From positions 30,051 through 94,050 of IMG/VR virus record IMGVR_UViG_3300045988_177920: a stretch of 64,000 nt of DNA. The stretch is one strand, 5' to 3'. The stretch is from a virus. Position 1 is the first letter of the stretch. Each line of letters opens with the position of its first letter. The translations under genes and the position numbers were made by a program. Of the stretch, positions 31,369 through 48,109 are shown one piece after another. Below the pieces are notes generated by a model that saw only the letters and a list, made by a program, of their open reading frames with translations, did no database searches and was not told where the DNA came from.

Positions 31369-31816
31369 TGGCTAATTTAGCATCTTCTTCAGATCTAAAT
31401 AATGCTATATTAGAGTACTTTCCATGTTCAGTGGAGGTTATCTCACATATAGTACCATCAAACAGGCTTATACAATAAAGTTTAGGACTTTTTAATATAT
31501 GATCCTCATACTTCTTATCCAGATCTATTGCTATTTGTTTAAGCACTAAAGAGAAGGTAATTGCAATATTAACTTCTTTTAGTTTATCTAGAACTCCAAG
31601 AAGTTTTTCAGGCTTCCATTTAAGTTTAGCAGCTAAATTGTCAATTGCTGTACTTAAAAGTCCTAAAGAAGAAGGCTTTTTATTGAGTTTTTTATCAATA
31701 TACTCACTTGCCTTTTGCGGATTAACTATTACATCAAAAAGAAAGTCTTCAAATTCTTCTTTTGTAAAAGTTATTTTAGAAATTGTAGTTTCCATAATAA
31801 AATTAATTTTATGCAA
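31322..31816 (-). CDS. Hypothetical protein
   Basis: Intact track ORF. Confidence 0.6.
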   Translation of the reverse strand: MHKINFIMETTISKITFTKEEFEDFLFDVIVNPQKASEYIDKKLNKKPSSLGLLSTAIDNLAAKLKWKPEKLLGVLDKLKEVNIAITFSLVLKQIAIDLDKKYEDHILKSPKLYCISLFDGTICEITSTEHGKYSNIALFRSEEDAKLAIEALEPFYKEMFPDE

Positions 31817-31845
31817 AGGTAATAAATAATTTTTAATTACAGATA

Positions 31846-32436
31846 TTATTGTTTATTTATTATAAGACTCCAATATGCTTCTTTTGTTAGTTCTATATTA
31901 TTAGGTTTAATAACTAATCTATTGATTCTCAAAGGATCTAATAGTCTAATTTCCATTGTTTGTTCAAATAATACCGGAATTATTTTTTTAGATAGGAAAT
32001 TATTAAATATATTATCATTATTTACATATGCATTATTTATAAATATAACTGATACATCATTTCCTTGCAATCTAGCAAATAGGGTATCAGTAGTTATATA
32101 AGTTAATAATATAGGTTCAAACTCATTATTGAATATACAGCCACATCCTATATAATAAATCTTATTTCGAATACTAAAACGTGATATTTGATTTCCACAA
32201 GATTTTAATAATGCTTCGCAAGGATTTGCAACAGAACAGACTCCATTTCTAATTATATTTAATGAGACTGCCCTAACTCCATTTTCAATCTTTCTTGCAA
32301 ACCGATATAATAATCTAGGAAAGCAATCAATGTTATATATCAATGAAGCAGAGTAATCAATATTTGATTTTTCTACTAAACGAGGGTTAGTAATAAATCT
32401 TGTTATGGCATTTCTTGTTTTGGCGGATATTTTCAT
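31846..32436 (-). CDS. Hypothetical protein translationally coupled to the E1-like gene
   Basis: Intact track ORF. Its ATG overlaps the stop of 32433-33242 (ATGA). Cys-rich, with no motif recognised. Confidence 0.6.
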   Translation of the reverse strand: MKISAKTRNAITRFITNPRLVEKSNIDYSASLIYNIDCFPRLLYRFARKIENGVRAVSLNIIRNGVCSVANPCEALLKSCGNQISRFSIRNKIYYIGCGCIFNNEFEPILLTYITTDTLFARLQGNDVSVIFINNAYVNNDNIFNNFLSKKIIPVLFEQTMEIRLLDPLRINRLVIKPNNIELTKEAYWSLIINKQ

Positions 32437-33242
32437 ACTTCAGTTTTTAATAACATTGTTGTAGCATCATAAGAAATCTTAAAAGGAAGACATCTAAAAT
32501 CTCCTGAAACTATGTTAGCTATATGATTTACAAATAAATTAGTAATTAATGAAGCAATCATACTTGCACAAAAAGATGTTTGTTTGTATGAACAAGGAGC
32601 TTCTTCTACTGCATTATCACTGAATAAGTAATGTTCTTTATATTTAAATGCTGCATCCGCATTTTCTCCTGTTATACAGAAAATCTGAAAGTCCTCAGCA
32701 TTTAATCTACCATCTATAAATATAGATTCTGCATCTCTTTTATTGTTTTTATACCATGCTTCAAATATCTCTTTACGAGATGCCATATTATCAAATCCAC
32801 ATATGATATTTCTTAGAGTTTCCGTACTTATTGTTGTGTCTGAAGTTAATCTGGAAATATTACTATATGCTCTATAAAAGTCACTAAACGCATTTATCGT
32901 ATTAATACAAGAATATACTTTAGAATCTCCTATATTGTTTTTATTAAATAATTGCCCTGCTAAATTAACCTCTTCAACATTATCATTGTCATATAGTCTA
33001 ATCTTATAAGGATTTAGCCTTGAAATTAATAAAGAAGTCCAAGAACCAATACCTCCACATCCTGCTATAGTAACAGTAGTTTGCTGAATTTTATTAAACC
33101 ATTCTGCATCATTAAAACGTACTGTATTTAATTTTACCAATAAAGATTCAGAGTTTTCTTGCAGTTCGGCATTTTCATCTTGTTCTATACTATCTATAGC
33201 AGCATTTATTTCTGCCATAAGTTCATTACTTATTCCATCCAT
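32433..33242 (-). CDS. E1-like (ThiF/MoeB family) adenylyltransferase
   Basis: TVTIAGCGGIGSW is a GxGxxG Rossmann loop. It is followed by RLYDNDNVEEVNLAGQ (compare DxDxVexsNLxRQ) and a PCSYKQTSFCASMIASL segment. Confidence 0.75.
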   Translation of the reverse strand: MDGISNELMAEINAAIDSIEQDENAELQENSESLLVKLNTVRFNDAEWFNKIQQTTVTIAGCGGIGSWTSLLISRLNPYKIRLYDNDNVEEVNLAGQLFNKNNIGDSKVYSCINTINAFSDFYRAYSNISRLTSDTTISTETLRNIICGFDNMASRKEIFEAWYKNNKRDAESIFIDGRLNAEDFQIFCITGENADAAFKYKEHYLFSDNAVEEAPCSYKQTSFCASMIASLITNLFVNHIANIVSGDFRCLPFKISYDATTMLLKTEV

Positions 33243-34366
33243 AATAAAAGACTGTTTAGTATTATTTTAATATATTTGTTAGATGTATATTTTGATAATT
33301 CTTGATATAAAGCATTTGCTAAATTTCTACCCTCATCTATTCTGAAAAATCCTTCTCCATCAGTATATTCTGAAAACAGTACTTCAAGAAGACTATCTAT
33401 CCACATATTAAATGTTTCTAGATCTTTAAATCTTTTATCATAAATAGCTTCCATTTTAGGAACCCATTCATAAAGATTTAGATTGGTATTATTGGCAGAA
33501 AGAATGCTTCCTGTTATAATTTGTCTAAGTATTGTTTGTACTTGTTTATTATCTATATGAATATTTTTAGGAAATTCCGAATAGTCTGCTGTGGCAAATT
33601 TATCATTAATACTTTTATCAGCTTCTGAATAAGGACTTTCAGGCATAAAAGTTTTTGAATAATAAAATGAATTATTTACCCAATCTGGTTGTATCATCAA
33701 CTTTTCTTGCTTCTTCAGCTCTTCTTGCCTCTTTAATTCCCTTTGTTTCTTCTCTTCTTCAATCTGTGCTATTCTAGCATCAATTTCAGAGTAATCTATA
33801 TCTTCTTTAATTATTTCCATTTTACTATATTTTATATTAATAGATTCTTCAGTATATTCTTTATCTTTAGAAACTTCTTTACCATTAAATGTCTTATACT
33901 TTATAGTTTCTTTAATAATTTTATTAGAAACACACTTTCTTGTTATAAATGCACTGTATGTACCTGCATTATTAACAATTAAAGATACAAAATGTATTCT
34001 TTCATTGCCTTCTTCTTTTAGAGTATTTATGTCCGTACCACTGGGACAAGTAGCCATGTGATTATGAGAATGGATTAACGCTTGTTCACATTCAAATAAA
34101 TCATTCATTGCAATATAATGAGCAATATCAGGAGATGTATTAAATTCGGTATATGCAGAAGAACCTATATCCATTAAGAAAATGTCTGTACATATAACTT
34201 TTAATCCTTCTTCATAAGTACCCAATGTTTTATAAAATAAAATCCCTGACCATTCAATGTCAGGTATTTTACTACATAAATATTTTATTTTATTCTCTAC
34301 CGTACTATTAATGATTAAGTATGGTGAGCATTGGTGTTCTTGCGTAATCTTCACTTGCTGTTCCAT
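33230..34366 (-). CDS. JAB/MPN (JAMM) metalloisopeptidase with extended C-terminal region
   Basis: HSHNHMATCPSGTD is an exact HxHx7Sx2D JAMM motif. An upstream Glu lies in DIEWSGILFY. A central charged coiled segment (EEEKKQRELKRQEELKKQ) follows. Confidence 0.75.
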   Translation of the reverse strand: MEQQVKITQEHQCSPYLIINSTVENKIKYLCSKIPDIEWSGILFYKTLGTYEEGLKVICTDIFLMDIGSSAYTEFNTSPDIAHYIAMNDLFECEQALIHSHNHMATCPSGTDINTLKEEGNERIHFVSLIVNNAGTYSAFITRKCVSNKIIKETIKYKTFNGKEVSKDKEYTEESINIKYSKMEIIKEDIDYSEIDARIAQIEEEKKQRELKRQEELKKQEKLMIQPDWVNNSFYYSKTFMPESPYSEADKSINDKFATADYSEFPKNIHIDNKQVQTILRQIITGSILSANNTNLNLYEWVPKMEAIYDKRFKDLETFNMWIDSLLEVLFSEYTDGEGFFRIDEGRNLANALYQELSKYTSNKYIKIILNSLLLWME

Positions 34367-35315
34367 AATTAAGTTTTTCTAAAATTGTAGTTTTTACATA
34401 AGAATATGCTTTAGAATTTAATATAGTTATACCTGTATTATCTTTATTATCAGGCTTTTCTATTATTAAAGGAATTACTTTACCTTTGAATATTAGATTT
34501 GTATTTATAGGTTCATTAGGTATTTCTTCTATAACCTTATTATTTGTATATAGACGACCGTCTCTTTTTGTGCATTTAAGTAGTACACCAGATGCAGCAT
34601 ATAGATCTTCTATAGTACAAGGCTTATTTTGTAAAGTATTGTAATATCGTATAAATTTATTTGCCAATATAATCCTTAGATCATCATCATTATATGCAAA
34701 ATCATAATAATACCCATTAAAGGTAAATTCAAGAGATCGTTCTTTGCATAGATATTTAATGAAACCATCCAATAATTCATTTTTTACCTTTATATAATAA
34801 ATATTAGGTACCATGCACTGAGCATTTTGATAATTATTTACAGACTCTAAGTCTATATACGGCCCTCCACTTAAGGATTCTACCTGTAATAAAAGTTTTA
34901 ATTCAGTAGCAAATAATGTATATAAATCAAAATCAATATTTTGAGACATAATATTATCTGCTATTTTTGTTATAGTGTCTCTTATAGGACCACTACCTAA
35001 GCAAAACTCCCCCCAACTTGTTAAAGAACTAAATCTTGGACAATGACTATGTACATATTTACATAGCCATTGTTTACATGTAAAATAGGTTCTCCTTATA
35101 TATATATTCCTAGTTATACTACCATCTTCATATAAATAAAATTTAACAAAAGTATCTTTTATATCAATACTCTTATTATATTCATTGGTTACAGTTAATT
35201 CAGGGAAATAAATTATAACATTTAGTTTATACGTATCTTCTTGAACATCAACAAACTCTTCTCCAAAAAAGTTTATAAATCTTGATATAATTTCTTTTTG
35301 TAGTGTCGTTTCCAT
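34308..35315 (-). CDS. Hypothetical protein, tentatively an E2 (UBC)-like N-terminal domain
   Basis: The CDS itself is well supported as a track ORF. The function is tentative: YVHSHCPRF-x8-GEFCLGSGPI resembles the HPN-x(n)-G-x-I-C-L active-site region, preceded by a helix plus four strand-like segments. It overlaps the JAB gene by 59 nt. Confidence 0.45.
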   Translation of the reverse strand: METTLQKEIISRFINFFGEEFVDVQEDTYKLNVIIYFPELTVTNEYNKSIDIKDTFVKFYLYEDGSITRNIYIRRTYFTCKQWLCKYVHSHCPRFSSLTSWGEFCLGSGPIRDTITKIADNIMSQNIDFDLYTLFATELKLLLQVESLSGGPYIDLESVNNYQNAQCMVPNIYYIKVKNELLDGFIKYLCKERSLEFTFNGYYYDFAYNDDDLRIILANKFIRYYNTLQNKPCTIEDLYAASGVLLKCTKRDGRLYTNNKVIEEIPNEPINTNLIFKGKVIPLIIEKPDNKDNTGITILNSKAYSYVKTTILEKLNYGTASEDYARTPMLTILNH

Positions 35316-35317
35316 AA

Positions 35318-35366
35318 TAAAAAAAATAAAGGGAGAGCAAGAGAATAAAGTCTCTTACCCTCCCTT
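35318..35366 (-). terminator. Terminator-like hairpin between 35378-35992 and 34308-35315
   Basis: AAGGGAGAGCAAGAGA (35329-35344) pairs with TCTCTTACCCTCCCTT (35351-35366) around a 3x3 internal loop. TTTATTTTTTTT follows on the minus strand. Confidence 0.6.
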
Positions 35367-35377
35367 GGTAGGATTAA

Positions 35378-35992
35378 TTATTCAAATTTAGCAAACATTT
35401 CATCGATTTCCTCATCAGAGGGGAAATCGTTATGCTCTTCCCATTCACATTTAACAGAACGCATAGCCTCTGTTGCTTCTGTACGAGAAATAATATCTTT
35501 CTCTACTAGAAGATTTGTCAGCTGTACCAAAGCTGTACGAAGATCCTCTGCATAAGCACAAGGATTTTCAGAATATTTAAGCTCCTCAACAAAGTTAATT
35601 AACTCAGCAGTTGATACTTGTGTATAAGGACGCCCAAAGTGCTCACGAATCTCTTTTGCAAGATTATGTTCTTTAATATACCGAAACATACCTGCACGGT
35701 CGGGACCTACTTGTTTGGGAGTAGCACCTGATTTAATCTTCTTAGAAGAATTGGTAATCATAATAAGAAGTTCATTAGTAGTTTCTCCGTTACGCTTCTT
35801 CACATTAGTGGGAAGTTGCGAAGAATCATCCTTCAACTCAACTGCACTATACCCTTCAAAGAAAGTCATTCCATCATACTCAATTCCATTTTCTGTAAGT
35901 GCAGTTTTAAGTTCACCTAAAGTTTCTGCACCTGTCATAATGATAGATTTTTCACGGCGAGTGTCTACTACATAAATTTTACGAGTTTCCAT
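35378..35992 (-). CDS. Hypothetical protein, tentatively an N-terminal ubiquitin-like (beta-grasp) domain
   Basis: The CDS is a sound track ORF. The first ~86 aa (KIYVVD / KSIIMTG / TLGELKTALTENGI / MTFFEG / ELLIMITNSSKKIKSG) follow the strand-strand-helix-strand-strand spacing of ubiquitin and end in Ser-Gly. This is pattern reading only. Confidence 0.4.
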   Translation of the reverse strand: METRKIYVVDTRREKSIIMTGAETLGELKTALTENGIEYDGMTFFEGYSAVELKDDSSQLPTNVKKRNGETTNELLIMITNSSKKIKSGATPKQVGPDRAGMFRYIKEHNLAKEIREHFGRPYTQVSTAELINFVEELKYSENPCAYAEDLRTALVQLTNLLVEKDIISRTEATEAMRSVKCEWEEHNDFPSDEEIDEMFAKFE

Positions 35993-40659: not shown

Positions 40660-41809
40660 TTAATGATACTGTTGTTATTAGTTTTGGATTATAGTTTTCA
40701 AGCATTTTCTTCATTAACTCCTCCTCCCTTGTATTTTTATAATAAGGTATTATAATAATGGGATTAGGATGTCTTAGAAGTCTTCCGCACCTTTGAGCTA
40801 CTATAGTTTCAGAACTATTTAGATTTGCATATATACCTACTTGACAGTTTACTAAATTTATGCCTTCATTAAGAACATTACATGCAGTAATATGATTTAT
40901 TTTTCCATCATTAAAGTCTTGTAAGTATTTAGAGGCATACCTGTTTTGACTGTTAATACAATATCTTCCTAATGCTTCAGTTTGTAAAATACTGCTACAG
41001 AATACTAAAGTTCTTTTATTTTTAAATTTCTTCAGTATATTATATACTATAGTAGTTTTTCGCGTACTAAGCCATTTAAGACGTTCATTGCATTTCATTA
41101 GCCAAATGTTTTTTATAACAGGATTCCGTGTATTCATATATTTGGTTTTATACCAATCTATAAGATTACTTATATCCATATTATATTGAGCTTCAGTACA
41201 TTTTATTGCTAAAGGAGTTTTAACATTTTTATAGTTCCATCTTTGAGAATAATCTATAGTGATAAGTTTACCATTAGCATTTTTATTCTTATATATAGTT
41301 TCGGATTTTATTTTATTATCCAATTCTAAAGGAATTAAAAACACTTTAGGGTCAGGCAGTATATCACCTATAGCCTCTTTAAGATTGATTTTATATTGTG
41401 TTAAAGGATTAAAGCAATAAGACAGTTCTTTTTTAAGTTCTCTATTTACAGTAGCAGAAAGCAGAAGGGAATGGGAGCAATTAAAGTCAGGAATAACCTC
41501 ACGACATCTTTCTGATAAGTGATGGCATTCATCATATATAATTGCATCCCATTTCCCGGCATACTTTGGAAAAGATATATATGTAGTGAAAGAAATATTA
41601 AGTTTATTGTCTTTCCACCACTTATTTATCTCATTTTTCCAAGTTTGTTTCAGAACATTTCTCGGTACTACTATAAGTAATGTTTTTACATTAAAGGTTT
41701 TTATCTTTTCTATAGCTATTCTTGATTTACCAATCCCAGTAGCCATTTCAAAAAGAAAGTTTTTACCTTTTAAACTTAATACTTCTTTCAATATATCTTC
41801 TCTATTCAT
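40640..41809 (-). CDS. Superfamily 2 (DEAD/DEAH-type) helicase
   Basis: Motif I ATGIGKS, motif II IYDECHH, and motif VI QRCGRLLR are present. Confidence 0.8.
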   Translation of the reverse strand: MNREDILKEVLSLKGKNFLFEMATGIGKSRIAIEKIKTFNVKTLLIVVPRNVLKQTWKNEINKWWKDNKLNISFTTYISFPKYAGKWDAIIYDECHHLSERCREVIPDFNCSHSLLLSATVNRELKKELSYCFNPLTQYKINLKEAIGDILPDPKVFLIPLELDNKIKSETIYKNKNANGKLITIDYSQRWNYKNVKTPLAIKCTEAQYNMDISNLIDWYKTKYMNTRNPVIKNIWLMKCNERLKWLSTRKTTIVYNILKKFKNKRTLVFCSSILQTEALGRYCINSQNRYASKYLQDFNDGKINHITACNVLNEGINLVNCQVGIYANLNSSETIVAQRCGRLLRHPNPIIIIPYYKNTREEELMKKMLENYNPKLITTVSLNDYLNK

Positions 41810-42191
41810 CTAGTATTTCGTATGTAAAGCTAAGAGCATTCAGCTCTTTTGCTATAAGTTTTATATGTGTTTCAAGACGTTGTTGTTTTGAGTACTGAGA
41901 CCATATATATCTTGAATGTTTTTTGGCCCAGTTTTCTATTGTGGGAATGCCTTCAGGAGTTACCATGAAATCATATGTTTCTTTACATATGTTTAAATGA
42001 TGTTTTGCAGGGCGATTTCCTCTTGAGTAGACTGTAAGTCTTTCTTTGTTTTTCTTCTTCCCTTTGCCTTTTCCTGTATAGTATTCTGTATTGATTACTG
42101 TTTGCTCGAATGCTTTATTTTCTTTGCATTCTTGTTCTGAGTACATTTGAGCACCTGGTACTACAAATGTAACACTTACTTTAGGTTCCAT
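41802..42191 (-). CDS. Hypothetical protein ending in a genuine TAG stop
   Basis: Intact track ORF. The stop is TAG (cta at 41802-41804). Confidence 0.6.
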   Translation of the reverse strand: MEPKVSVTFVVPGAQMYSEQECKENKAFEQTVINTEYYTGKGKGKKKNKERLTVYSRGNRPAKHHLNICKETYDFMVTPEGIPTIENWAKKHSRYIWSQYSKQQRLETHIKLIAKELNALSFTYEILDE

Positions 42192-42499
42192 AGTTTTTTA
42201 AGCGCTGTTTTTATTTTATATAAAAGAGTTGGTTTTACTTTTATAGGTTTTCTCAGACTGTTTTCTGTATAGTTTTTTCCTCTGTACAGTCTGTCTTTAC
42301 CTAAAAGTACAAACATGGTTTTTGTGCCTATATAGTGTGGATTTTCGGGATTTTGCATAAAATACCACATTTGACTAATGGCACCTTGAGATCTGTTTAA
42401 CTTTGTTGATAAAGTTAAAAAACACTTTTGTAGGTTTTCTGGGTGTGAGGAGACTTCCTTAAGGATAGCTTGTTTCTCCTCTTTTGTCCATCTTTTCAT
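42176..42499 (-). CDS. Hypothetical protein (SANT/Myb-like N-terminus?)
   Basis: Track ORF. RWTKEEKQAIL resembles the first helix of a Myb/SANT domain, which is weak evidence. Confidence 0.5.
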   Translation of the reverse strand: MKRWTKEEKQAILKEVSSHPENLQKCFLTLSTKLNRSQGAISQMWYFMQNPENPHYIGTKTMFVLLGKDRLYRGKNYTENSLRKPIKVKPTLLYKIKTALKKLWNLK

Positions 42500-42717
42500 T
42501 ATTCATCTAGTTGTTTTAAGAAGTTGGTCATTATATCTATTTTTTGTTCTGCTGCATCTATAGCCCATTCTAAATGTTCATCCAGATACTCTTGAACTTC
42601 ATCTTTGTTGTTTATGTTACCATAAAAGGGTTCTCCTAAAGTGATAACACAAAAGTTTAAGCTTTTAAGTTGTTTCTTTGTAGGTTTCATATATATTGAT
42701 TTTAAATGAATATTCAA
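42499..42717 (-). CDS. Hypothetical protein
   Basis: Intact track ORF. Confidence 0.55.
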   Translation of the reverse strand: MNIHLKSIYMKPTKKQLKSLNFCVITLGEPFYGNINNKDEVQEYLDEHLEWAIDAAEQKIDIMTNFLKQLDE

Positions 42718-42894
42718 AATAGTAGATTTTAAAACAATTTAGCGAAAACTCCTCTACTATATGTTTTCTTTAGAAAGTTAGGCCCTTATCTTACCGCATG
42801 TTATCTCTCTGCTAGAACGTTTTTTAATAGAGTTTCCTCTCCAGGTATATTTATAGTAATATACCAAACAGTGATGTTCAGGATTTCCTTCCTT

Positions 42895-43083
42895 TTAATG
42901 TACGTAATGAGGTACTGCTTTAGCATTTGTATTTAAAAGTTTATTTACAAATATTGCAGCTTTCCATGCATCACCTATAGTATCAAACATTGATGCTTCT
43001 TCAAAGTTATATTTGATATATAAGGTGTTATCTGCTATATAAGCAAATGCATTATCACTTAATTTTACTATCCATTTTTCCAT
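42895..43083 (-). CDS. Hypothetical small protein
   Basis: Intact track ORF, first gene after the tRNA region. Confidence 0.5.
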   Translation of the reverse strand: MEKWIVKLSDNAFAYIADNTLYIKYNFEEASMFDTIGDAWKAAIFVNKLLNTNAKAVPHYVH

Positions 43084-43103
43084 ATTTAATGTATTTTTTT
43101 GGT

Positions 43104-43142
43104 TAAAAAATAAAACCTTGCTATTCTCCCGAACCGCAAGGT
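43104..43142 (-). terminator. Intrinsic terminator after the minus-strand tRNA cluster
   Basis: ACCTTGC (43115-43121) pairs with GCAAGGT (43136-43142). TTTTATTTTTT follows on the minus strand. Confidence 0.55.
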
Positions 43143-43179
43143 AAAGTAATCAAACGAAACTCAAAACATTTTCAATTAG

Positions 43180-43249
43180 GAGCTCTTGTAGGATTTGACT
43201 CTACATCTTTCTATATACTATAGAATGTTTTACATTAAACTAAAGAGCC
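43180..43249 (-). tRNA. tRNA-like element with a non-canonical anticodon loop (nominal GUA)
   Basis: Hand fold: acceptor GGCUCUU/AAGAGCU, D stem GUUU/AAAC, anticodon stem UUCUA/UAGAA with loop UAGUAUA (A at position 33, U at 37; it can also zip into a 7-bp stem), and T arm GUAGA-GUCAAAU-CCUAC with one mismatch. Variable loop is short. Confidence 0.4.
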
Positions 43250-43292
43250 TGGTTATAATAACCATGTTTCACTTAAAACCAACACAATGGAG

Positions 43293-43367
43293 TAGTCCTT
43301 GTAGGGCTTGAACCTACGACCTTCTGAATATCAGTCAGATGCTCTCAACCAACTGAGCTAAAGGACT
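43293..43367 (-). tRNA. tRNA-Ile (anticodon GAU)
   Basis: Clean 75-nt cloverleaf: AGUCCUU/AAGGACU, GCUC/GAGC, UCUGA-CUGAUAU-UCAGA, GUAGG-UUCAAGC-CCUAC. Confidence 0.85.
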
Positions 43368-43416
43368 ATATACTATCTATACTCACGTACCGATAGTTTC
43401 AAAAAAAAACGAACTG

Positions 43417-43476
43417 AAATAACTTGTAGATAAATAACTTGTATATAAATAACTTGTAGATATATAACTTGTAGAT
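43417..43476. repeat. Four tandem 15-bp direct repeats (AAATAACTTGTAGAT consensus)
   Basis: The units are 43417-43431, 43432-43446, 43447-43461 and 43462-43476, with 1-2 substitutions between them. Confidence 0.9.
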
Positions 43477-43496
43477 ACATTAGGATTCGAACCTAA
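43472..43496 (-). pseudogene. tRNA 3'-half fragment (T arm plus 3' acceptor strand only)
   Basis: The minus strand reads UUAGG-UUCGAAU-CCUAA then UGUAUCUA. I found no complementary 5' acceptor strand or anticodon arm upstream. Confidence 0.45.
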
Positions 43497-43888
43497 ATCT
43501 CTATTATGATTGTAATGGCTAACAAACAAAATCAAAACTAAACTTAAAAGTAACAATTAAATAATGAGTAACATAATAGTGTTTTACCTTTTAGTACCTC
43601 TGTACTATCTTAAACTATGTATCCAGACACCTTCTTTCGAAGGATAAACACTATTTTCACAAACAATGTTTATATAACCAATTAGAATGTTGGCATCATT
43701 CTAAAGATTCAAACAAACCTAATGTGTTTCACCTTTTTAGTAAAGTAGGAACTACAGTAAGTTATGAACTTACTTCTTTCTTATACTTTACGCATTTTTC
43801 ACGTAAGCATATAAGAATGTTTTAACACATAAACTATATAGTTCTTATATTCATATTACCACATGTCTTTATTTTATGGCGCTACATA

Positions 43889-44365
43889 TTAATAGGTATC
43901 CATAACATCTACAATATCTGCATTGTAGAGATCCATTTCATACTTTCTTTTTTCATAGTCCAACTCATCTCTTAAGTCTTCTATGTGCTTTTGTATGAAA
44001 GCTACCCCTTCTTCTAAAGATGTTCTGTCTCCGTTGTAAGGTATATTCAGATATCCTTCTATGTAGTCTATTATCTTTGAAGTAGCTTTGTAGACAGCTT
44101 CTTTAGATACATTTGGGTATTTTTTGAGAGGTTTATTGTATATATCTGCATATACTTTTAGTATGTAGTTACATATGATTTCCTCTCTTGATGGAGTACG
44201 TTTATTTAGTTCCCCCTTTTTAGAGTAGTACTCTATTTTTATCGCGTCTTTAGAGTTTTTGAGAATCTCTTTTGCTTGAAATTCTCCTTCCTCTTCTGTT
44301 CTTACTTTTCTTGTACAGATTGTGTTCTTTCCATCTGCTGTTGTCATCTTGTAAATGTAGTCCAT
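43889..44365 (-). CDS. Hypothetical protein
   Basis: Intact track ORF immediately downstream of tRNA-Leu. Confidence 0.65.
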   Translation of the reverse strand: MDYIYKMTTADGKNTICTRKVRTEEEGEFQAKEILKNSKDAIKIEYYSKKGELNKRTPSREEIICNYILKVYADIYNKPLKKYPNVSKEAVYKATSKIIDYIEGYLNIPYNGDRTSLEEGVAFIQKHIEDLRDELDYEKRKYEMDLYNADIVDVMDTY

Positions 44366-44398
44366 TTTGTTTTTGTTTTAAGTTAATAATGTTAGTTG

Positions 44399-44484
44399 TA
44401 CCCCCAGTGGGACTTGAACCCACACAGCCTATAATGGCCAACAGATTTTAAGTCTGTCTTGTCTACCTATTCCAACATAGGGGC
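44399..44484 (-). tRNA. tRNA-Leu (anticodon UAA), class II
   Basis: 86 nt: acceptor GCCCCUA/UGGGGGU, anticodon arm ACAGA-CUUAAAA-UCUGU, a long variable arm, and T arm GUGGG-UUCAAGU-CCCAC. Confidence 0.85.
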
Positions 44485-44495
44485 TTATTTTTATG

Positions 44496-44527
44496 CAAAA
44501 TTATATATAATTTACATAATATGCAAA
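44496..44527 (-). promoter_or_regulatory. Bacteroidota-type promoter driving tRNA-Leu
   Basis: On the minus strand, TTTG (44524-44527) is followed after 20 nt by TAATTTTG (44496-44503), ending 11 nt before the tRNA 5' end. Confidence 0.6.
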
Positions 44528-44865
44528 TAAAAATCGAAGTAAAAGAGGAGTTAATGGTGTGTAAAAAAAGCTATAAATTACCTTATCCCATTAATTTTTA
44601 ATTGGTACACCGCAAACCCCGGAAGTGTGGAGGGGAGTGAGGGCATCTGTAACCTACTGATATTCAATAACATAACCCACACATATACCAAGGTTGGTCT
44701 CATAAATTTGGTAATTTATCAATTTATTATATTGGTGATAAACCAATAAAAAGTATAATATAATAGGTAATTTACCAATATAAAGTAATGATATTATTAT
44801 TAATTAATGTAAATAGTAATTAATAAATATTAATATCAATATAAACTTGGATGAGCGAGGTGACT

Positions 44866-44906
44866 GAAAAAAAATACCCTCCCAGGAATTACTCCCAGGA
44901 GGGTAT
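44866..44906 (-). terminator. Intrinsic terminator
   Basis: ATACCCTCC (44874-44882) pairs with GGAGGGTAT (44898-44906). A T8 run follows on the minus strand, after the stop at 44926. Confidence 0.7.
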
Positions 44907-44925
44907 GCAGGGGAAGGAGAGTTAA

Positions 44926-45216
44926 TTATTCTCCTTCAAGGATACGAAGAATATCATCCTCACCTGTCTTGGACAAGGTGAGTTTCTTCATTGTATGCAG
45001 GTCAAGAACATCCCCTACCTTGGCTGCACTCTGTGTAGCCATGGGGACATAGATCTTCTCTCCGCTGTGCATCAAGAAGCAACAGCTTAGCCCATACTGA
45101 GAATCCACAACAGTGGCTTTCTCAAAGGCGTTGAGTTCCTCTTGACTGAGGTTTTCAGTGGAGTCGAGATTCCAAGAACCTGCATAGACTTTTTCGCTAA
45201 GAATTGACTTAGACAT
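44926..45216 (-). CDS. Hypothetical protein (96 aa)
   Basis: Track ORF 44926-45294 trimmed to the internal MSKSILSEK start. The upstream part looks non-coding and structured. Confidence 0.55.
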   Translation of the reverse strand: MSKSILSEKVYAGSWNLDSTENLSQEELNAFEKATVVDSQYGLSCCFLMHSGEKIYVPMATQSAAKVGDVLDLHTMKKLTLSKTGEDDILRILEGE

Positions 45217-45344
45217 GATAGTATACGGTTTACCTATACACCATAAGGTTTTAAGTGAAAAGATATGGAAGGTGGCTGAACCTCTCATTGGCAACCTTGC
45301 CTTCCAAGCATGGGGAACCAGTGACCTGCACGCGCAAGCGGGCA

Positions 45345-45385
45345 GAAAAAAATAATACCCTCAAGGAGTTTCCTCCTCAAGGGTA
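45345..45385 (-). terminator. Intrinsic terminator
   Basis: A 12-bp stem, ACCCTCAAGGAG/CTCCTCAAGGGT, with 2 mismatches and a TTTC loop. ATTATTTTTTT follows on the minus strand. Confidence 0.6.
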
Positions 45386-45437
45386 CTATTGTATAGGATG
45401 TATTACTTATTTATGTAATGCATACGTTCGCTGATGT

Positions 45438-45653
45438 TTAGTATTCTTCCGCTTCAAGTTCTTCGTAGATTTGCCTTTCAAGGTCAGCTTCTTCTTTACG
45501 AAGTTCTTCGAGTTTCTTTGATACTTCTTCCAGCTTTTCTTCTAGGTAGCTATAGATGAGTCCTTGCTGCATTATATCAAAACGCAGATCGCTAAGTTTT
45601 TCTTCTTTATCCATTATTTTAGATATTTGATTATAGCTATGATAACTATACAC
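45438..45653 (-). CDS. Hypothetical coiled-coil protein
   Basis: Track ORF rich in E/K heptads. The start may be the internal MDKEEK at 45614. Confidence 0.55.
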   Translation of the reverse strand: MYSYHSYNQISKIMDKEEKLSDLRFDIMQQGLIYSYLEEKLEEVSKKLEELRKEEADLERQIYEELEAEEY

Positions 45654-45666
45654 TTTATTCTATATA

Positions 45667-45921
45667 TCAACAACATATCATTATACTATTCATGTTGAAG
45701 ATGCACATCCCAACAGCTTTATATAAAGCAGGAAGGTCCTCTATGCTGTTGAGGGTTATGTAGCTGGTTTGATCACAACAGAGTTGCACAGCTTCTTCCA
45801 TCTCGTCTTGGTTTACATCCTGAATGTTAAACCCTGCGTTTGTTAGTTTTGCTTTGGTCTCTTCTGAAAGACATTTTGTGAGATCCCATTCAAGGGATTC
45901 TTGGAAGATTAAATACTTCAT
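45667..45921 (-). CDS. Hypothetical protein
   Basis: Intact track ORF in the GC-richer block. Confidence 0.6.
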   Translation of the reverse strand: MKYLIFQESLEWDLTKCLSEETKAKLTNAGFNIQDVNQDEMEEAVQLCCDQTSYITLNSIEDLPALYKAVGMCIFNMNSIMICC

Positions 45922-45937
45922 TGTTGTTGGTTTTTAT

Positions 45938-46252
45938 TTATTGTTCTAGATATTTGATTATAGATTCCATATAGCATATGGGAAGTGTTATTCCCCAATG
46001 CTCATCAACCTGCTCTCCCTGCCTTATTACAAGCAGGTCAAAGCACCTGCCATTTGAGTATGGGGTGCTAAGGTAGAACATATATCCCAGATGTGCCTTT
46101 GTGGCATAGATATGGCCTCCTAGTTTAAAGGCCATACCTTGAATAGGATACAGGCTATTTGCGAAGAGAGTGTTGGGCTTGTTTGCCAGAATGGAGAAGA
46201 TGAGGAGGAAGAAAGAACGTTTTATATCCATGATTATTTGAAGGTTCCACAC
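45938..46252 (-). CDS. Hypothetical protein with signal-peptide-like N-terminus
   Basis: Track ORF. MDIKRSFFLLIFSILA begins at an internal Met (46231). Confidence 0.55.
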   Translation of the reverse strand: MWNLQIIMDIKRSFFLLIFSILANKPNTLFANSLYPIQGMAFKLGGHIYATKAHLGYMFYLSTPYSNGRCFDLLVIRQGEQVDEHWGITLPICYMESIIKYLEQ

Positions 46253-46299
46253 AAGAGCAGCCTACAAGCTTTAGTTAATAATCAAGTTTAGTTAGACAA

Positions 46300-46608: not shown

Positions 46609-46625
46609 ACAAGCTTTAGGTTAGG

Positions 46626-48090: not shown

Positions 48091-48109
48091 CAGGTGAATT
48101 TCTTAGAAC

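What the first reader, a model, noticed from the sequence alone, without database searches (positions are those of the whole stretch)
32433..35992. Phage-encoded ubiquitin-like conjugation cassette (Ubl? / E2? / JAB / E1) inside the replication module
Two adjacent genes carry clear motifs. 33230-34366 has an exact JAMM motif (HSHNHMATCPSGTD). 32433-33242 has a ThiF/MoeB/E1 Rossmann loop (IAGCGGIGSW) followed by DNDNVEEVNLAGQ. The gene upstream of them (34308-35315) has an HSHCPRF-x8-GEFCLGSG segment resembling the HPN...G-x-I-C-L active site of UBC/E2 folds. The gene before that (35378-35992) begins with an ~86-aa segment whose strand/helix spacing mimics ubiquitin and ends in Ser-Gly. The transcription order Ubl-E2-JAB-E1 is the order of bacterial BilABCD-type operons, which are known as host anti-phage systems, not phage genes. 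The genes overlap by 59 nt and 13 nt, and a further 196-aa ORF (31846-32436) is ATGA-coupled downstream. In a lytic phage, such a cassette could modify phage or host proteins, or could reverse or decoy host Ubl- or CBASS Cap2/Cap3-type conjugation. One caveat: a terminator-like hairpin (35318-35366) separates the Ubl candidate from the rest. The E2 and Ubl calls are pattern reading only.
Basis: partly seen in the sequence, partly recalled or inferred. Interest (0 to 1): 0.9.

Follow-up and report, generated by a model that had tools for sequence, protein, structure and literature searches.

The report
Phage ubiquitin-like protein activation cassette
A large group of gut crAss-like phages carries a conserved five-gene set that appears built to cut free and chemically activate a small ubiquitin-like protein, machinery so far studied mainly as bacterial anti-phage defence, although the gene guessed to be the 'E2' enzyme is not a recognisable E2.

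Summary
All ORFs, motifs, overlaps and the hairpin are where stated; the only error is a 6-residue spacer reported as 8.

**Confirmed**
- 33230-34366 is a JAMM/JAB peptidase with a complete active site.
- 32433-33242 is a minimal E1-like adenylyltransferase (Pfam ThiF, 5e-17).

**Supported by structure**
- The first 81 residues of 35378-35992 fold as a ubiquitin/SUMO-like beta-grasp.
- A flexible tail follows, ending in Ser-Gly, which is invariant in 77 of 77 homologues.

**Not supported**
- 34308-35315 as a UBC-fold E2. A confident model (pLDDT 89.8) finds no E2 by Foldseek. None of 91 family members hits an E2 model. hhalign to canonical E2s gives 0.1%.
- It is instead a very large phage-only family with invariant H89, H91 and C105; E138 and E146 are also conserved.

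**New evidence**
- The order Ubl, Cys/His protein, JAB, E1 is intact in 72 of 72 viral loci. A fifth gene overlaps the E1 stop codon.
- Two sister phages lack the four genes downstream of the Ubl gene. They keep only the C-terminal half of the Ubl protein, as a stand-alone gene starting right after the Ser-Gly site.

This fits a JAB-processed Ubl precursor activated by the E1. What the Ubl is transferred to, and how, is unknown. It is not a Bil, Bub, CBASS or PRTRC member. No paper in the searched library describes it.

The parts
35378..35992 (-). Gene 1: Ubl-precursor, 204 aa, a beta-grasp domain fused to a helical C-terminal domain. Homologue of crAss001 gp79.
   Evidence: ORF. Family alignment A2. 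AF2 model. Foldseek. FpV4 gp53 is a homologue by hhalign at 97.2%.
35726..35992 (-). Residues 1-89: the ubiquitin-like beta-grasp (1-81) plus a flexible tail, KKIKSG, ending at Ser88-Gly89. This is the proposed mature modifier.
   Evidence: Strand/helix order is E4-10, E15-20, H25-34, E42-46, E75-81. Residues 84-96 have pLDDT below 50. Top Foldseek hits are Ub, SUMO, Hub1 and UBX. Ser-Gly is invariant in 77 of 77 homologues and ends at residue 89 in 62 of them. The domain is absent from the two sister phages that lack the enzymes.
35381..35725 (-). Residues 90-204: helical C-terminal domain with a conserved acidic/hydrophobic C-terminal tail (SDEEIDEMF). It is predicted to be released by cleavage after Gly89.
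   Evidence: Helices 99-108, 112-119, 128-139, 148-164, 170-178 and 193-201. It exists as a stand-alone 85-aa or 82-aa gene in IAS virus and cr116_1, starting right after the Ser-Gly(-Ala) position (hhalign 97.9% and 97.8%).
35319..35366 (-). Terminator or attenuator-like hairpin (16-bp stem) plus T-run, between gene 1 and gene 2.
   Evidence: A hairpin plus T-run sits at the same position, with a different sequence, in crAss001, bajarodcaudo virus 1 and FpV4. It is also found in 44 of 73 IMG/VR loci.
34308..35315 (-). Homologue of crAss001 gp78. Fold family and function unknown.
   Evidence: AF2 pLDDT is 89.8. No PDB fold match. BFVD returns only its own uncharacterised family. The family has 3,178 representatives at 50% identity. 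Only 1 hit in 185,579 species genomes.
34986..35057 (-). Conserved core of gene 2, residues 87-110: Y87-x-H89-S90-H91 ... G-x-F-C105-L-G107-x-G-P110.
   Evidence: Y87, S90, H91, C105, G107 and P110 are invariant and H89 is 98% conserved across 91 sequences. N44, E45, E138, E146, S147 and G150 are also invariant.
33230..34366 (-). Gene 3: JAMM/JAB metallopeptidase (N-terminal domain of about 160 aa) with a coiled-coil and helical C-terminal extension. Homologue of crAss001 gp77.
   Evidence: Prok-JAB is hit in 17 of 18 members. The best solved relative is P. furiosus JAMM1, then CSN5 and Rpn11-like proteins. A public source names it 'proteasome lid subunit RPN8/RPN11'.
34031..34072 (-). JAMM catalytic motif H99-S-H101-x7-S109-x2-D112. 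The partner Glu38 lies upstream in DIEWSG.
   Evidence: E38, H99, H101, S109 and D112 are at least 95% conserved in 70 sequences. This motif is the insertion site of two different intron-like elements in near-identical relatives.
32433..33242 (-). Gene 4: minimal single-domain E1-like (ThiF/MoeB superfamily) adenylyltransferase, 269 aa. Homologue of crAss001 gp76.
   Evidence: Pfam ThiF 5.1e-17. The profile matches PDB MccB and UBA5 near 1e-12. Conserved residues are R42, G61xGGIG, D85, D87, K108, D151, R156 and C217, with Gly96 invariant in place of the NLxRQ Arg.
31846..32436 (-). Gene 5: fast-evolving 196-aa protein, translationally coupled to the E1 gene. Homologue of crAss001 gp75 and FpV4 gp49. 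Function unknown.
   Evidence: ATGA overlap. An ORF overlaps the E1 stop codon by 1 or 4 nt in 70 of 72 loci and is homologous by phmmer at about 1e-6. The family has no invariant column and no Pfam hit or annotated relative.

Best explanation
This is a phage-borne, five-gene ubiquitin-like modifier module, transcribed with the replication ('middle') genes.

**The five genes**
- Gene 1 encodes a precursor. A ubiquitin-like beta-grasp domain with a flexible tail ends in an invariant Ser-Gly. It is fused to a small helical protein that exists on its own in sister phages lacking the module.
- Gene 2 is a phage-specific enzyme-like protein with invariant H89, H91 and C105, plus conserved E138 and E146. 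It is not a detectable UBC-fold E2.
- Gene 3 is a JAMM/JAB metallopeptidase with a complete active site.
- Gene 4 is a minimal E1-like adenylyltransferase.
- Gene 5 is a rapidly evolving protein translationally coupled to the E1.

**Proposed mechanism**
1. The JAB peptidase cuts the precursor after Gly89. This frees the helical protein and exposes the Ubl C-terminal glycine. The same logic has been shown experimentally for BubAB in Type I Bub operons, and it applies to eukaryotic ubiquitin-ribosomal-protein fusions.
2. The E1 adenylates Gly89 using ATP.
3. The activated Ubl is passed on, possibly through E1 Cys217 and/or gene-2 Cys105, to an acceptor. The acceptor is most likely a lysine on a phage or host protein.
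4. Gene 5 may act as a specificity factor or as the target. The JAB may also reverse the conjugates.

**Shown here:** the folds, the catalytic motifs, strict synteny, translational coupling, and the joint gain or loss of the Ubl domain with the enzymes at exactly the Ser-Gly boundary.

**Inferred:** cleavage, adenylation, any thioester, the acceptor, and the biological role.
For: **Ubl**
- Beta-grasp model with pLDDT of about 85-94 over residues 1-81 and a disordered tail at 84-96.
- Foldseek top hits are Ub, SUMO1, Hub1, UBX and ISG15, at probability 1.00 and TM 0.55-0.69.
- K-x-I-[KRA]-S-G is conserved, with Ser-Gly invariant in 77 of 77 homologues. Flavobacterium phage FpV4 retains it as KQVKSGG.

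**JAB**
- E38, H99, H101, S109 and D112 are at least 95% conserved.
- Prok-JAB is hit in 17 of 18 members.
- The nearest solved structure is the archaeal Ubl protease JAMM1.

**E1**
- ThiF scores above the Pfam cut-off.
- The Rossmann loop, D85, D87, K108, D151 and R156 are conserved.
- D151 aligns with the catalytic Asp of MoeB's TDN motif.
- The best solved relatives are MccB, UBA5 and UBA6, ahead of ThiF and MoeB.

**Linkage**
- E1, JAB and gene 2 occur in the same 74 phage records.
- The Ubl is found in all 45 crAss-like records among those 74, and in FpV4 by profile comparison.
- The order Ubl, gene 2, JAB, E1 is intact in 72 of 72 IMG/VR loci.
- The overlaps are conserved: -62 nt, -4 nt, and -1 or -4 nt.

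**Phyletic test**
- IAS virus and cr116_1 keep the flanking synteny but lack gene 2, JAB, E1 and gene 5.
- They encode only the C-terminal domain of gene 1, as an 85-aa or 82-aa protein that begins right after the Ser-Gly(-Ala) position.

**Precedent**
- BubCD's JAB domain cleaves the BubAB pre-protein immediately after a conserved Gly (PMC11601596).
- For lambda TAPI, a Ubl joined through a linker to a C-terminal domain was predicted to be released by a JAB peptidase (PMC1779556).

**Timing**
- In crAss001 the replication module is transcribed from 10-30 min (PMC8375218).
- The cassette contains no in-frame TAG, although this phage recodes TAG in its large structural and RNA-polymerase genes.
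Against: - No biochemical step has been demonstrated.
- No homologue ends at the glycine: all 77 carry the C-terminal extension. The mature form is therefore inferred.
- The tail ends in Ser-Gly, not Gly-Gly.
- The Ubl has no sequence-level match to any Ubl family. The fold match is moderate, with E about 1e-3 and rmsd about 5 A.
- In the E1, an invariant Gly96 replaces the Arg of the N-L-x-R-Q nucleotide-binding motif.
- The E1 has no CxxC zinc motifs. Its C-terminal half, which includes the conserved Cys217, cannot be aligned to any solved E1. A crossover-loop catalytic Cys is therefore unproven.
- Gene 2 is not a UBC fold by any test. The transfer step has no catalyst identified by homology.
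- Gene 2's many invariant polar residues (N44, E45, R75, Y87, H89, S90, H91, C105, E138, E146, S147) suggest a more elaborate site than an E2, possibly a metal site.
- A conserved terminator-like hairpin separates gene 1 from genes 2-5. Gene 1 is coupled to the primase gene instead.
- The enzyme-less comparison rests on only two species.
Confidence: 0.55

Rival explanations
1. The module is a sulfur-carrier pathway. After JAB trimming, the E1 adenylates the Ubl, which is then converted to a C-terminal thiocarboxylate. Gene 2, a possible His/His/Cys/Glu metalloenzyme, uses that sulfur to make a thio-modified nucleotide, cofactor or metabolite during replication. The model systems are QbsE/QbsD/QbsC, CysO/Mec+/MoeZ and TtuB/TtuC/TtuA (own knowledge).
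For: - The combination of a beta-grasp protein with a C-terminal extension, a JAMM peptidase and a minimal MoeB/ThiF-like E1 is exactly the composition of those systems. Iyer et al. list such operons (PMC1779556).
- Gene 2 is not an E2 and has many invariant polar residues, as an enzyme active site would.
- The best NCBIfam hit of the E1 is ThiF PRK08644, at 1.8e-15 but far below its cut-off.
- The cassette sits among nucleotide-metabolism and replication genes.
Against: - No rhodanese, cysteine desulfurase or PP-loop sulfurtransferase was detected in the cassette.
- The E1 profile scores UBA5, MccB and UBA6 above ThiF and MoeB. It also lacks the CxxC zinc motifs of ThiF and MoeB.
- The top 50 fold matches of the Ubl are Ub, SUMO, UBX and similar proteins, with no ThiS or MoaD.
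- The tail is Ser-Gly, not Gly-Gly.
- A fast-evolving fifth subunit fits a protein-recognition role better than metabolism does.
Confidence: 0.15
2. This is a canonical Bil-like E1-E2-Ubl-DUB cascade. Gene 2 would be a true UBC-fold E2 with catalytic Cys105, diverged beyond detection.
For: - The local pattern Y-x-H-S-H ... G-x-F-C-L parallels Y-H-P-N ... G-x-I-C-L of E2s, and it is invariant across the family.
- The order of predicted elements (alpha, four beta strands, a loop with His, Cys, then two long helices) matches the UBC order.
- The gene order Ubl, x, JAB, E1 equals BilA-D (PMC11601596).
- Diverged bacterial E2s, such as BubB and the Cap2 E2 domain, are known.
Against: - Foldseek with a confident model (pLDDT 89.8) gives no UBC hit in the PDB. 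The best E is 0.11, even though the PDB holds hundreds of E2s, including Cap2 and BubB.
- BFVD returns only the protein's own family.
- None of 91 members hits Pfam UQ_con or Prok-E2, or the PADLOC BilB and Cap2 models.
- None of 14 members hits NCBIfam.
- hhalign against canonical E2s gives 0.1%.
- The beta strands are 14 residues long, unlike UBC.
- The E1 lacks the three-part BilD architecture.
Confidence: 0.1
3. The module acts as a counter-defence eraser or decoy. The phage JAB strips host Ubl-type conjugates, such as Bil tags on phage proteins or Cap2-primed cGAS. Alternatively, the phage Ubl and E1 titrate or mimic host components. The module's own conjugation activity would be secondary or absent.
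For: - In sister genera, the same genomic slot between primase and UDG holds rIIA/rIIB-like 'protector from prophage-induced early lysis' genes. T4 rII is a classic anti-exclusion function (own knowledge).
- Gene 5 evolves fast, as expected in an arms race.
- The cassette is accessory: it is present in 74 of the 127 phage records that share the primase.
- Host Ubl systems do target phage proteins (10.1101/2023.09.04.556158).
Against: - An eraser would need only the JAB. The strictly co-inherited Ubl domain, E1 and gene 2 argue that the module makes something itself.
- The JAB and E1 resemble the defence-system models only weakly: PADLOC JAB at 0.027 and BilD at 0.0019.
- The evidence from position is circumstantial.
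Confidence: 0.1
4. This is not one system. The beta-grasp is simply an interaction domain of a replisome-associated protein, co-transcribed with the primase. The E1 and JAB act on an unrelated substrate, for example MccB-like adenylation of a peptide C-terminus.
For: - A conserved terminator-like hairpin separates gene 1 from genes 2-5.
- Gene 1 overlaps the primase gene by 14 nt.
- The best PDB hits of the E1 include MccB and PaaA, which adenylate peptides rather than Ubls.
- Beta-grasp domains serve many functions unrelated to modification (PMC1949818, title and abstract).
Against: - The beta-grasp domain is missing precisely in the phages that lack the enzymes, and the boundary falls at the invariant Ser-Gly.
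- A disordered linker with an invariant K-x-I-x-S-G motif is hard to explain as a passive linker.
- Co-occurrence was complete in every data set examined.
Confidence: 0.1

Closest known systems
Type I Bub (6E/DUF6527) operons: BubAB pre-protein, BubCD (JAB-E1 fusion), BubE (PMC11601596)
   Same: - The Ubl is made as the N-terminal part of a fusion protein.
- The operon's own JAB peptidase cleaves that fusion immediately after a conserved Gly, exposing the reactive C-terminus.
- The E1 is a minimal homodimer-type adenylation domain resembling UBA5 and MoeB.
- BubCD is a weak PDB hit of the phage E1 profile, at 4e-5.
   Different: - Bub is bacterial and predicted to act in defence.
- The domain fused behind the Bub Ubl is the E2 (BubB, a diverged UBC fold). 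Here it is an all-helical protein with no conserved Cys or Ser active site.
- Bub works through Tyr and Ser oxyesters and lacks catalytic cysteines. The phage E1 and gene 2 both have invariant cysteines.
- There is no DUF6527/BubE homologue here.
- JAB and E1 are separate genes here.
BilABCD (Bacterial ISG15-like) anti-phage systems (10.1101/2023.09.04.556158; PMC10557695; PMC11601596)
   Same: - The gene order is Ubl, second enzyme, JAB, E1.
- The Ubl has a C-terminal Gly, and some BilA proteins carry short C-terminal overhangs of 2-9 aa.
- It includes a JAB/JAMM peptidase and an E1.
   Different: - BilB is a UBC-fold E2. Gene 2 is not.
[quoted passage not shown] The phage E1 is a single domain of 269 aa.
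- PADLOC BilD scores only 0.0019, and there are no BilA, BilB or BilC hits.
- Bil is host-encoded and targets phage tail proteins. This module is encoded by lytic phages.
Type II CBASS Cap2 (E2-E1 fusion) and Cap3 (JAB) (PMC10097602)
   Same: - An E1 adenylation domain is combined with a JAB peptidase.
- PADLOC 'E1-E2' models hit the phage E1 at up to 8e-10, and PDB Cap2 matches at 2e-7.
   Different: - The hits cover only the E1 domain.
- There is no E2 domain and no fusion.
- The substrate in CBASS is the CD-NTase C-terminus, not a Ubl.
- No CD-NTase or effector gene is present in the cassette.
Prokaryotic Ubl/JAB/E1/E2-like operons of Iyer, Burroughs and Aravind 2006 (class 6d) and the lambda/T1 TAPI-TAPK pair (PMC1779556)
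   Same: - Class 6d operons contain a Ubl, a JAB, an E1-like protein, an E2-like protein and a rapidly diverging extra protein. That is the same five-part inventory in outline.
- TAPI is a phage Ubl domain joined through a linker to a C-terminal domain. It was predicted to be released by a neighbouring JAB peptidase at the last Gly.
   Different: - Class 6d operons are bacterial or carried on conjugative elements. Their E2-like proteins are recognisable UBC derivatives, captured by the Pfam Prok-E2 models, which do not hit gene 2.
- The related PRTRC model matches only the E1, at 36.8 bits against a cut-off of 144.75.
- TAPI-TAPK has no E1 and functions in tail assembly.
E2-independent archaeal and bacterial Ubl systems: SAMP/UbaA/HvJAMM1, PfJAMM1 and TtuB/TtuC (own knowledge; PDB 5LDA is the top JAB hit)
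   Same: - A small beta-grasp modifier, a minimal E1 and a JAMM protease are sufficient for conjugation without a UBC E2.
- The nearest solved relative of the phage JAB is P. furiosus JAMM1.
   Different: - Those modifiers end in Gly-Gly and double as sulfur carriers.
- They are cellular housekeeping systems.
- They have no counterpart of gene 2 or gene 5.
Eukaryotic ubiquitin-ribosomal-protein fusion genes (UBA52, RPS27A) (own knowledge)
   Same: - The modifier is encoded as an N-terminal fusion to an unrelated small protein that also functions on its own.
- A dedicated peptidase releases both parts at the terminal Gly.
   Different: - They are eukaryotic, processed by Cys-protease DUBs, and their partners are ribosomal proteins.
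- This is an analogy only.

Membership tests
JAMM/MPN+ (JAB) metallopeptidases | Catalytic motif E...HxH-x7-S-x2-D | tested here: met
   E38 (DIEWSG) and H99-S-H101-NHMATCP-S109-GT-D112 are present. All five residues are at least 95% conserved in 70 family members.
JAMM/MPN+ (JAB) metallopeptidases | Profile match to a JAB family model | tested here: met
   Prok-JAB (PF14464) is hit by 17 of 18 members, best 2.4e-6. The window protein itself scores 18.7 bits, below the cut-off of 25. The family profile hits PDB JAMM1 at 0.0015, then CSN5 and Rpn11-like proteins.
E1-like (ThiF/MoeB/UBA) adenylyltransferases | Rossmann-type ATP-binding domain scoring above the family threshold | tested here: met
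   Pfam ThiF scores 5.1e-17, 62.3 bits against 28.1, over residues 46-263. G61-x-G-G-I-G, D85 and D87 are conserved. The profile hits 69 PDB E1-type sequences at E of 1e-3 or better.
E1-like (ThiF/MoeB/UBA) adenylyltransferases | Catalytic Asp (MoeB D130, in the TDN motif) and Lys (MoeB K86) | tested here: met
   FDNMASR aligns with MoeB TDNVAVR, and GDSKV aligns with GQPKV, by hhalign at 96%. The MoeB sequence was validated against 1jw9.
E1-like (ThiF/MoeB/UBA) adenylyltransferases | Arg of the N-L-x-R-Q nucleotide-phosphate-binding motif | tested here: not met
   NLAGQ aligns with MccB NLTRQ, UBA5 NMNRL and MoeB NLQRQ. Gly96 is invariant across the phage family.
E1-like (ThiF/MoeB/UBA) adenylyltransferases | Catalytic Cys in or near the crossover loop (the criterion quoted in PMC11601596) | tested here: inconclusive
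   Cys217 is conserved in 69 of 70 sequences and invariant in alignment A5. However, the C-terminal half does not align with any solved E1, so its structural position is unknown.
Ubiquitin-like beta-grasp modifiers | Beta-grasp fold | tested here: met
   The AF2 model has pLDDT of about 85-94 for residues 1-81 with a beta-beta-alpha-beta-beta order. Foldseek top hits are ubiquitin, SUMO1, Hub1, UBX and ISG15, at probability 1.00 and TM 0.55-0.69.
Ubiquitin-like beta-grasp modifiers | Flexible C-terminal tail ending in a Gly that is free, or can be freed by processing | tested here: inconclusive
   Ser-Gly is invariant in 77 of 77 homologues and lies in a disordered segment. The domain boundary falls at this site in sister phages. 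No natural homologue ends at the Gly, and cleavage has not been shown.
Ubiquitin-like beta-grasp modifiers | Sequence membership in a described Ubl family (ubiquitin, ThiS, MoaD, Prok_Ub, PRTRC_C and others) | tested here: not met
   The 50 family members have no Ubl-family hit in Pfam or NCBIfam. The profile has no hit against PDB sequences.
UBC/E2 ubiquitin-conjugating enzymes, including prokaryotic E2-like families | UBC fold | tested here: not met
   The model has pLDDT 89.8. Foldseek against the PDB gives a best E of 0.11 and no E2, RWD or UEV among the top 50. Foldseek against BFVD returns only the protein's own family.
UBC/E2 ubiquitin-conjugating enzymes, including prokaryotic E2-like families | Profile similarity to UQ_con, Prok-E2_A to E, BilB or the Cap2 E2 domain | tested here: not met
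   None of 91 members hits in Pfam or PADLOC. None of 14 hits in NCBIfam. hhalign against four canonical E2s gives 0.1%. The profile finds nothing against PDB sequences.
UBC/E2 ubiquitin-conjugating enzymes, including prokaryotic E2-like families | Invariant catalytic Cys with an upstream His-containing motif | tested here: inconclusive
   C105 and H91 are invariant and H89 is 98% conserved, in the order H-x-H-x13-C. This is pattern resemblance only. Thioester formation cannot be tested with these tools.
BilABCD | BilD-type E1 with IAD-AAD-CYS architecture and a BilB UBC E2 (PMC11601596) | tested here: not met
   The E1 is a single domain of 269 aa. PADLOC BilD scores 0.0019 over about 85 residues. 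There are no BilA, BilB or BilC hits.
PRTRC (ParB-related, ThiF-related cassette) | Matches to the PRTRC_ThiF and PRTRC A/B/C/E/F models above their cut-offs | tested here: not met
   PRTRC_ThiF scores 36.8 bits against a cut-off of 144.75. The other four proteins and their families have no PRTRC hit.
Sulfur-carrier Ubl systems (ThiS/ThiF, MoaD/MoeB, QbsE/C/D, CysO/MoeZ/Mec+) | An associated sulfur-transfer component (rhodanese, desulfurase or acceptor enzyme) and a Gly-Gly terminus | tested here: not met
   No rhodanese or sulfurtransferase domain is present in any of the five proteins. The tail is Ser-Gly. Use of host sulfur donors cannot be excluded.

The most novel reading that the evidence does not exclude
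The module is a complete protein-conjugation pathway that a lytic phage uses offensively. A Ubl is released from a fusion precursor by a JAB peptidase and activated by a stripped-down E1. A new, non-UBC Cys/His enzyme family then transfers it to targets. This family, with more than 3,000 clusters at 50% identity and found only in phages, would have evolved the E2 role independently. The fast-evolving fifth protein would choose host or phage targets during the replication phase.
Probability: 0.3. Interest if true: 0.9.

Novelty: new variant of a known kind. Interest (0 to 1): 0.75.

Why it matters
**Known background.** Ubiquitin-like conjugation in prokaryotes has recently been established as an anti-phage weapon in the Bil, CBASS Cap2/Cap3 and Bub systems.

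**What is different here.** The same toolkit, a Ubl, a JAB peptidase and an E1, appears to sit on the phage side.
- It is also found in Flavobacterium fish-pathogen phages.
- No paper in the searched library describes it.
- Public records label the parts 'thiamine biosynthesis protein', 'metalloprotease' and 'hypothetical protein'.

**What would follow if it conjugates proteins.**
- It would be a virus-encoded Ubl system in bacteria.
- It would include a partner enzyme family of more than 3,000 diverse clusters that has no recognisable fold relative.
- It would have a precursor architecture that parallels eukaryotic ubiquitin fusion genes.

**Testability.** crAss001 and DAC15, which carry the module, and their Bacteroides hosts are in culture. 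crAss001 gp75-gp79 are the direct homologues.

Tried and rejected
**Tests of the E2 idea, all negative**
- Single-sequence scans against Pfam, PHROGs, NCBIfam and PADLOC.
- Family-wide scans against Pfam, PADLOC and NCBIfam.
- The family profile against PDB sequences.
- Foldseek against the PDB and BFVD.
- hhalign against canonical E2s.

**Other searches that led nowhere**
- An exhaustive HMM search meant to bridge gene 2 to a known family was saturated by its own huge family. All of the top 150 hits were full-length members, so no bridge was seen.
Rerun with A4, it found only one 1.1-kb MAG contig.
- I recalled a 'CEHH'-type non-canonical E2 class from the Bub literature. The term does not occur in that paper, and no such link was found.

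**Hypotheses rejected**
- Weak Foldseek hits to GTP cyclohydrolase I (probability about 0.1) raised the idea of a T-fold or QueD-like metalloenzyme for gene 2. I dropped it: the hits are not significant and the strand/helix order does not fit.
- I first suspected that an in-frame, recoded TAG explained the split JAB genes in relatives. The interruptions are in fact insertions of 0.6 kb and 1.2 kb.

**Questions left open**
- Rfam finds no intron family in those insertions.
- Alignment of E1 Cys217 to MoeB Cys187 could not be established.
- The fifth protein has no Pfam hit and no annotated relative.

**Literature.** Searches for crAss with ThiF, ubiquitin or JAB, for Crassvirales with ubiquitin, and for crAss001 gp76-79 found no description of the cassette.

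**Identity of the window.** megablast of the region against annotated phages found nothing. The window's species is therefore not among the annotated phage records searched.

Full report
**1. The observation**

The window is part of a crAss-like phage genome. It has about 29% G+C and long same-strand gene blocks. It carries replication genes with less than 60% amino-acid identity to crAss001 and DAC15.

All quoted motifs were verified by translation. The one error is the spacer between HSHCPRF and GEFCLGSG, which is 6 residues, not 8. The overlaps of 59, 13 and 4 nt are correct. The hairpin at 35366-35329 has a 16-bp stem followed by a T-run.

**2. The two enzymes that are what they seem**

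*E1 (32433-33242).*
- It scores well above threshold against Pfam ThiF, at 5.1e-17.
- A profile of 19 diverse family members matches 69 solved E1-type proteins.
- The best matches are MccB and UBA5, near 1e-12, then TcdA, UBA6 and UBA1. ThiF (5.6e-9), Cap2 (2e-7), MoeB (5e-7) and BubCD (4e-5) score lower.
- It therefore does not group with cofactor-biosynthesis enzymes.
- Conserved residues include R42, the GxGGIG loop, D85, D87, K108, D151, R156 and Cys217.

The E1 departs from the norm in three ways.
- The Arg of the N-L-x-R-Q motif is an invariant Gly.
- There are no CxxC zinc motifs.
- The C-terminal half cannot be aligned with any solved E1. Whether Cys217 is a crossover-loop catalytic cysteine therefore stays open.

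*JAB (33230-34366).*
- It has the complete JAMM site: E38, H99, H101, S109 and D112, all at least 95% conserved.
- Seventeen of 18 family members hit Prok-JAB.
- The nearest solved relative is the archaeal Ubl protease JAMM1.

**3. The Ubl candidate**

- The family (alignment A2) has a very strongly conserved N-terminal 89 residues ending in KKIxSG, followed by a variable region.
- AlphaFold2 predicts a beta-grasp for residues 1-81 with pLDDT of about 85-94. A disordered tail spans residues 84-96 and contains KKIKSG. An all-helical domain follows.
- Foldseek against the PDB returns ubiquitin, SUMO1, Hub1, UBX and ISG15 domains almost exclusively, at probability 1.00 and target-normalised TM 0.55-0.69.
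- No sequence model of any Ubl family matches. The call rests on fold and context.
- Across 77 homologues from viral contigs, Ser-Gly is invariant, within K-x-I-[K/R/A]-S-G.
- The distant Flavobacterium phage FpV4 homologue keeps it as KQVKSGG.

**4. The 'E2' candidate**

- The model is confident, with pLDDT 89.8 and pTM 0.73.
- Its N-terminal half has the same order of elements as a UBC domain.
- The invariant Y87-x-H89-S-H91 ... G-x-F-C105-L does echo YHPN ... GxICL.

Every test of homology nevertheless failed.
- Foldseek against the PDB gave a best E of 0.11, with no E2, RWD or UEV hit.
- Foldseek against BFVD returned only the protein's own uncharacterised phage family.
- None of 91 members hit the Pfam or PADLOC E2, BilB or Cap2 models. 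None of 14 hit NCBIfam.
- The family profile found nothing among PDB sequences.
- hhalign against four canonical E2s gave 0.1%.

The protein also has many more invariant polar residues than an E2 would need: N44, E45, R75, S90, E138, E146 and S147.

It belongs to a very large family, with 3,178 representatives at 50% identity at E of 1e-3 or better. The family is essentially absent from 185,579 bacterial and archaeal species genomes: there was one hit, on a 1.1-kb MAG contig, although only a single peptide pattern was scanned.

I therefore treat it as a phage-specific Cys/His enzyme of unknown fold class. It may be a functional analogue of an E2, but it is not a member of that family.

**5. 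Linkage**

- tblastn with E1, JAB and gene 2 finds exactly the same 74 of 50,697 phage records. These are 45 crAss-like Steigviridae relatives and 29 Flavobacterium Fipvunavirus phages.
- The Ubl domain is found in all 45 crAss-like records, and in FpV4 by profile comparison.
- In 80 loci fetched from IMG/VR around Ubl homologues, all 72 with enough downstream sequence have Ubl, gene 2, JAB and E1 in that order on one strand.
- The gene overlaps are conserved. Gene 2 and JAB overlap by 62 nt in 52 loci. JAB and E1 overlap by 4 nt in 54 loci.
- A fifth ORF overlaps the E1 stop codon by 1 or 4 nt in 70 of 72 loci. It is homologous to the window's 196-aa ORF despite rapid divergence, and the family has no invariant column.
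- The hairpin plus T-run after the Ubl gene is conserved in position, but not in sequence, in crAss001, bajarodcaudo virus 1 and FpV4. It is found in 44 of 73 IMG/VR loci.
- This suggests the precursor is expressed at a different, probably higher, level than the enzymes.

**6. The decisive comparison**

The primase next to the cassette has homologues in 127 phage records, of which only 74 carry the cassette.

IAS virus (61% primase identity) and cr116_1 (51%) are sister genera in the same subfamily. Their flanking synteny is identical: helicase, p306, primase, then UDG, the resolvase and the exonuclease.
- They lack gene 2, JAB, E1 and gene 5, by tblastn and by family HMMs.
- In that slot they carry rIIA/rIIB-like 'protector from prophage-induced early lysis' genes.
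- They retain an 85-aa or 82-aa gene that is homologous only to the C-terminal helical domain of the Ubl protein (hhalign 97.9% and 97.8%, E about 6e-13).
- The initiator Met of that gene aligns with the residues immediately after Ser-Gly(-Ala).

The beta-grasp-plus-tail module is therefore gained or lost together with the enzymes, and the fusion junction coincides with the invariant Gly.

This is what a JAB-processed Ubl precursor would look like. It parallels the experimentally shown cleavage of BubAB after a conserved Gly by the operon's JAB domain (PMC11601596). It also parallels the predicted release of the lambda TAPI Ubl (PMC1779556) and eukaryotic ubiquitin-ribosomal-protein fusions (own knowledge).

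**7. Mechanism and rivals**

*Best-supported model (confidence about 0.55).*
1. JAB cuts the precursor after Gly89.
2. The E1 adenylates the exposed Gly.
3. The Ubl is transferred to an acceptor, plausibly by way of Cys217 and/or Cys105.
4. Gene 5 acts as a specificity factor or as the target.

Only the folds, motifs, synteny and phyletic coupling are shown. Every chemical step is inferred.

*Rivals.*
- A sulfur-carrier pathway like QbsE/QbsD/QbsC or CysO/Mec+, with gene 2 as the sulfur-using enzyme (0.15).
- A true but undetectably diverged E2 cascade (0.1).
- A counter-defence eraser or decoy (0.1). The rII-occupied slot in sister phages and the fast-evolving fifth gene hint at a host-interaction role.
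- Unrelated neighbouring genes (0.1), which the phyletic result argues against.

*Timing.* In crAss001 the homologous module belongs to the middle genes, transcribed from 10-30 min (PMC8375218). The cassette has no in-frame TAG, whereas this phage's large late genes are TAG-recoded.

**8. Comparison with known systems and novelty**

- The module works most like Type I Bub in its precursor processing and minimal E1.
- It resembles the E2-less archaeal SAMP/JAMM systems in composition.
- It resembles Bil in gene order.
- It fails defining tests for Bil, CBASS, PRTRC and the UBC family (see the membership table).
- Public sources name the window's exact proteins 'hypothetical', 'proteasome lid subunit RPN8/RPN11' and 'molybdopterin/thiamine biosynthesis adenylyltransferase'.
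- GenBank phage records use 'thiamine biosynthesis protein', 'metalloprotease domain containing protein' or, in one record, 'E1 enzyme family protein'.
- No paper in the searched library describes the cassette. This includes the crAss001 papers and a 2023 Crassvirales review.
- I rate it a new variant of a known kind: a Ubl/JAB/E1 system that is phage-encoded, uses a fusion precursor, and has a non-UBC partner enzyme.

Noticed in passing
window 33230-34366 (JAMM motif 34031-34072); L085:5253-5872; L086:5271-6456: In many relatives more than 90% identical to this phage, the JAB gene is split inside the JAMM motif by insertions. One is about 620 nt with no ORF, between H99 and S100. The other is about 1.19 kb with a 352-aa LAGLIDADG ORF, between A105 and T106. 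In both, the upstream exon ends in T and the insert ends in G, as in group I introns, and the two inserts share a 3' block. Rfam finds no intron family. The window's copy is uninterrupted. Split forms are seen on more contigs than intact ones.
   Followed up: partly
window 55249-55320 (+); 1-16548 and 58197-63936: There is a tRNA with anticodon CTA, which reads UAG. Reading TAG as sense raises stop-free stretches of 250 aa or more from 5,006 to 12,442 aa. The large genes at 1-3441, 3491-8845, 8833-16548, 58197-61451 and 61498-63936 hold 20-56 in-frame TAGs each. The replication module has none. TAG recoding is known in crAss-like phages (own knowledge).
   Followed up: partly
L087 (IAS virus) 8825-11007; L088 (cr116_1) 8428-12584: In sister genera, the slot between primase and UDG that holds the Ubl cassette here is occupied by rIIA/rIIB-like 'protector from prophage-induced early lysis' genes. 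This suggests a swappable accessory locus, possibly for anti-defence functions, within the replication module.
   Followed up: partly
L087:5959-7547; L088:5959-7550: The primase gene of IAS virus and cr116_1 is annotated in two pieces, separated by about 500-600 nt. In cr116_1 an HNH endonuclease and an 'intron-encoded endonuclease' lie nearby. These may be further mobile insertions in this module.
   Followed up: no
window 41800-50600: This is a G+C-richer block (0.36-0.40 against about 0.29) with no ORF of 200 aa or more in any of three codes. It consists of about 20 small minus-strand ORFs of 80-207 aa, flanked by tRNA genes. It is probably an early-gene region. There are no Rfam matches other than tRNAs.
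   Followed up: partly
window 43180-43249 (-): Rfam detects a fifth tRNA here at 42.2 bits. ARAGORN did not report it.
   Followed up: no
window 31816-31846, with reference to L001:7540-8205: The window lacks the uracil-DNA glycosylase gene that lies beside the cassette in crAss001 (gp74), bajarodcaudo virus 1 and FpV4 (gp54). Here the fifth gene is followed directly by the 164-aa ORF.
   Followed up: no
alignment A1 (family of window 34308-35315): Five of 91 family members hit the Pfam ubiquitin-like model PF25565 (Ubiquitin_At1g33420), best 2.6e-4. Longer members of 400-456 aa carry insertions relative to the window protein.
   Followed up: no
L001:5581-6738 (crAss001 gp76): The crAss001 E1 has an N-terminal extension of about 115-150 aa. 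It is absent from the window's E1 (269 aa) and from FpV4's E1 (228 aa). Its function is unknown.
   Followed up: no
alignment A7 (ORFs downstream of E1 in the IMG/VR loci): In one locus the ORF directly downstream of E1 hits LAGLIDADG_3 at 1.1e-10. This is another homing-endonuclease gene within the cassette region.
   Followed up: no
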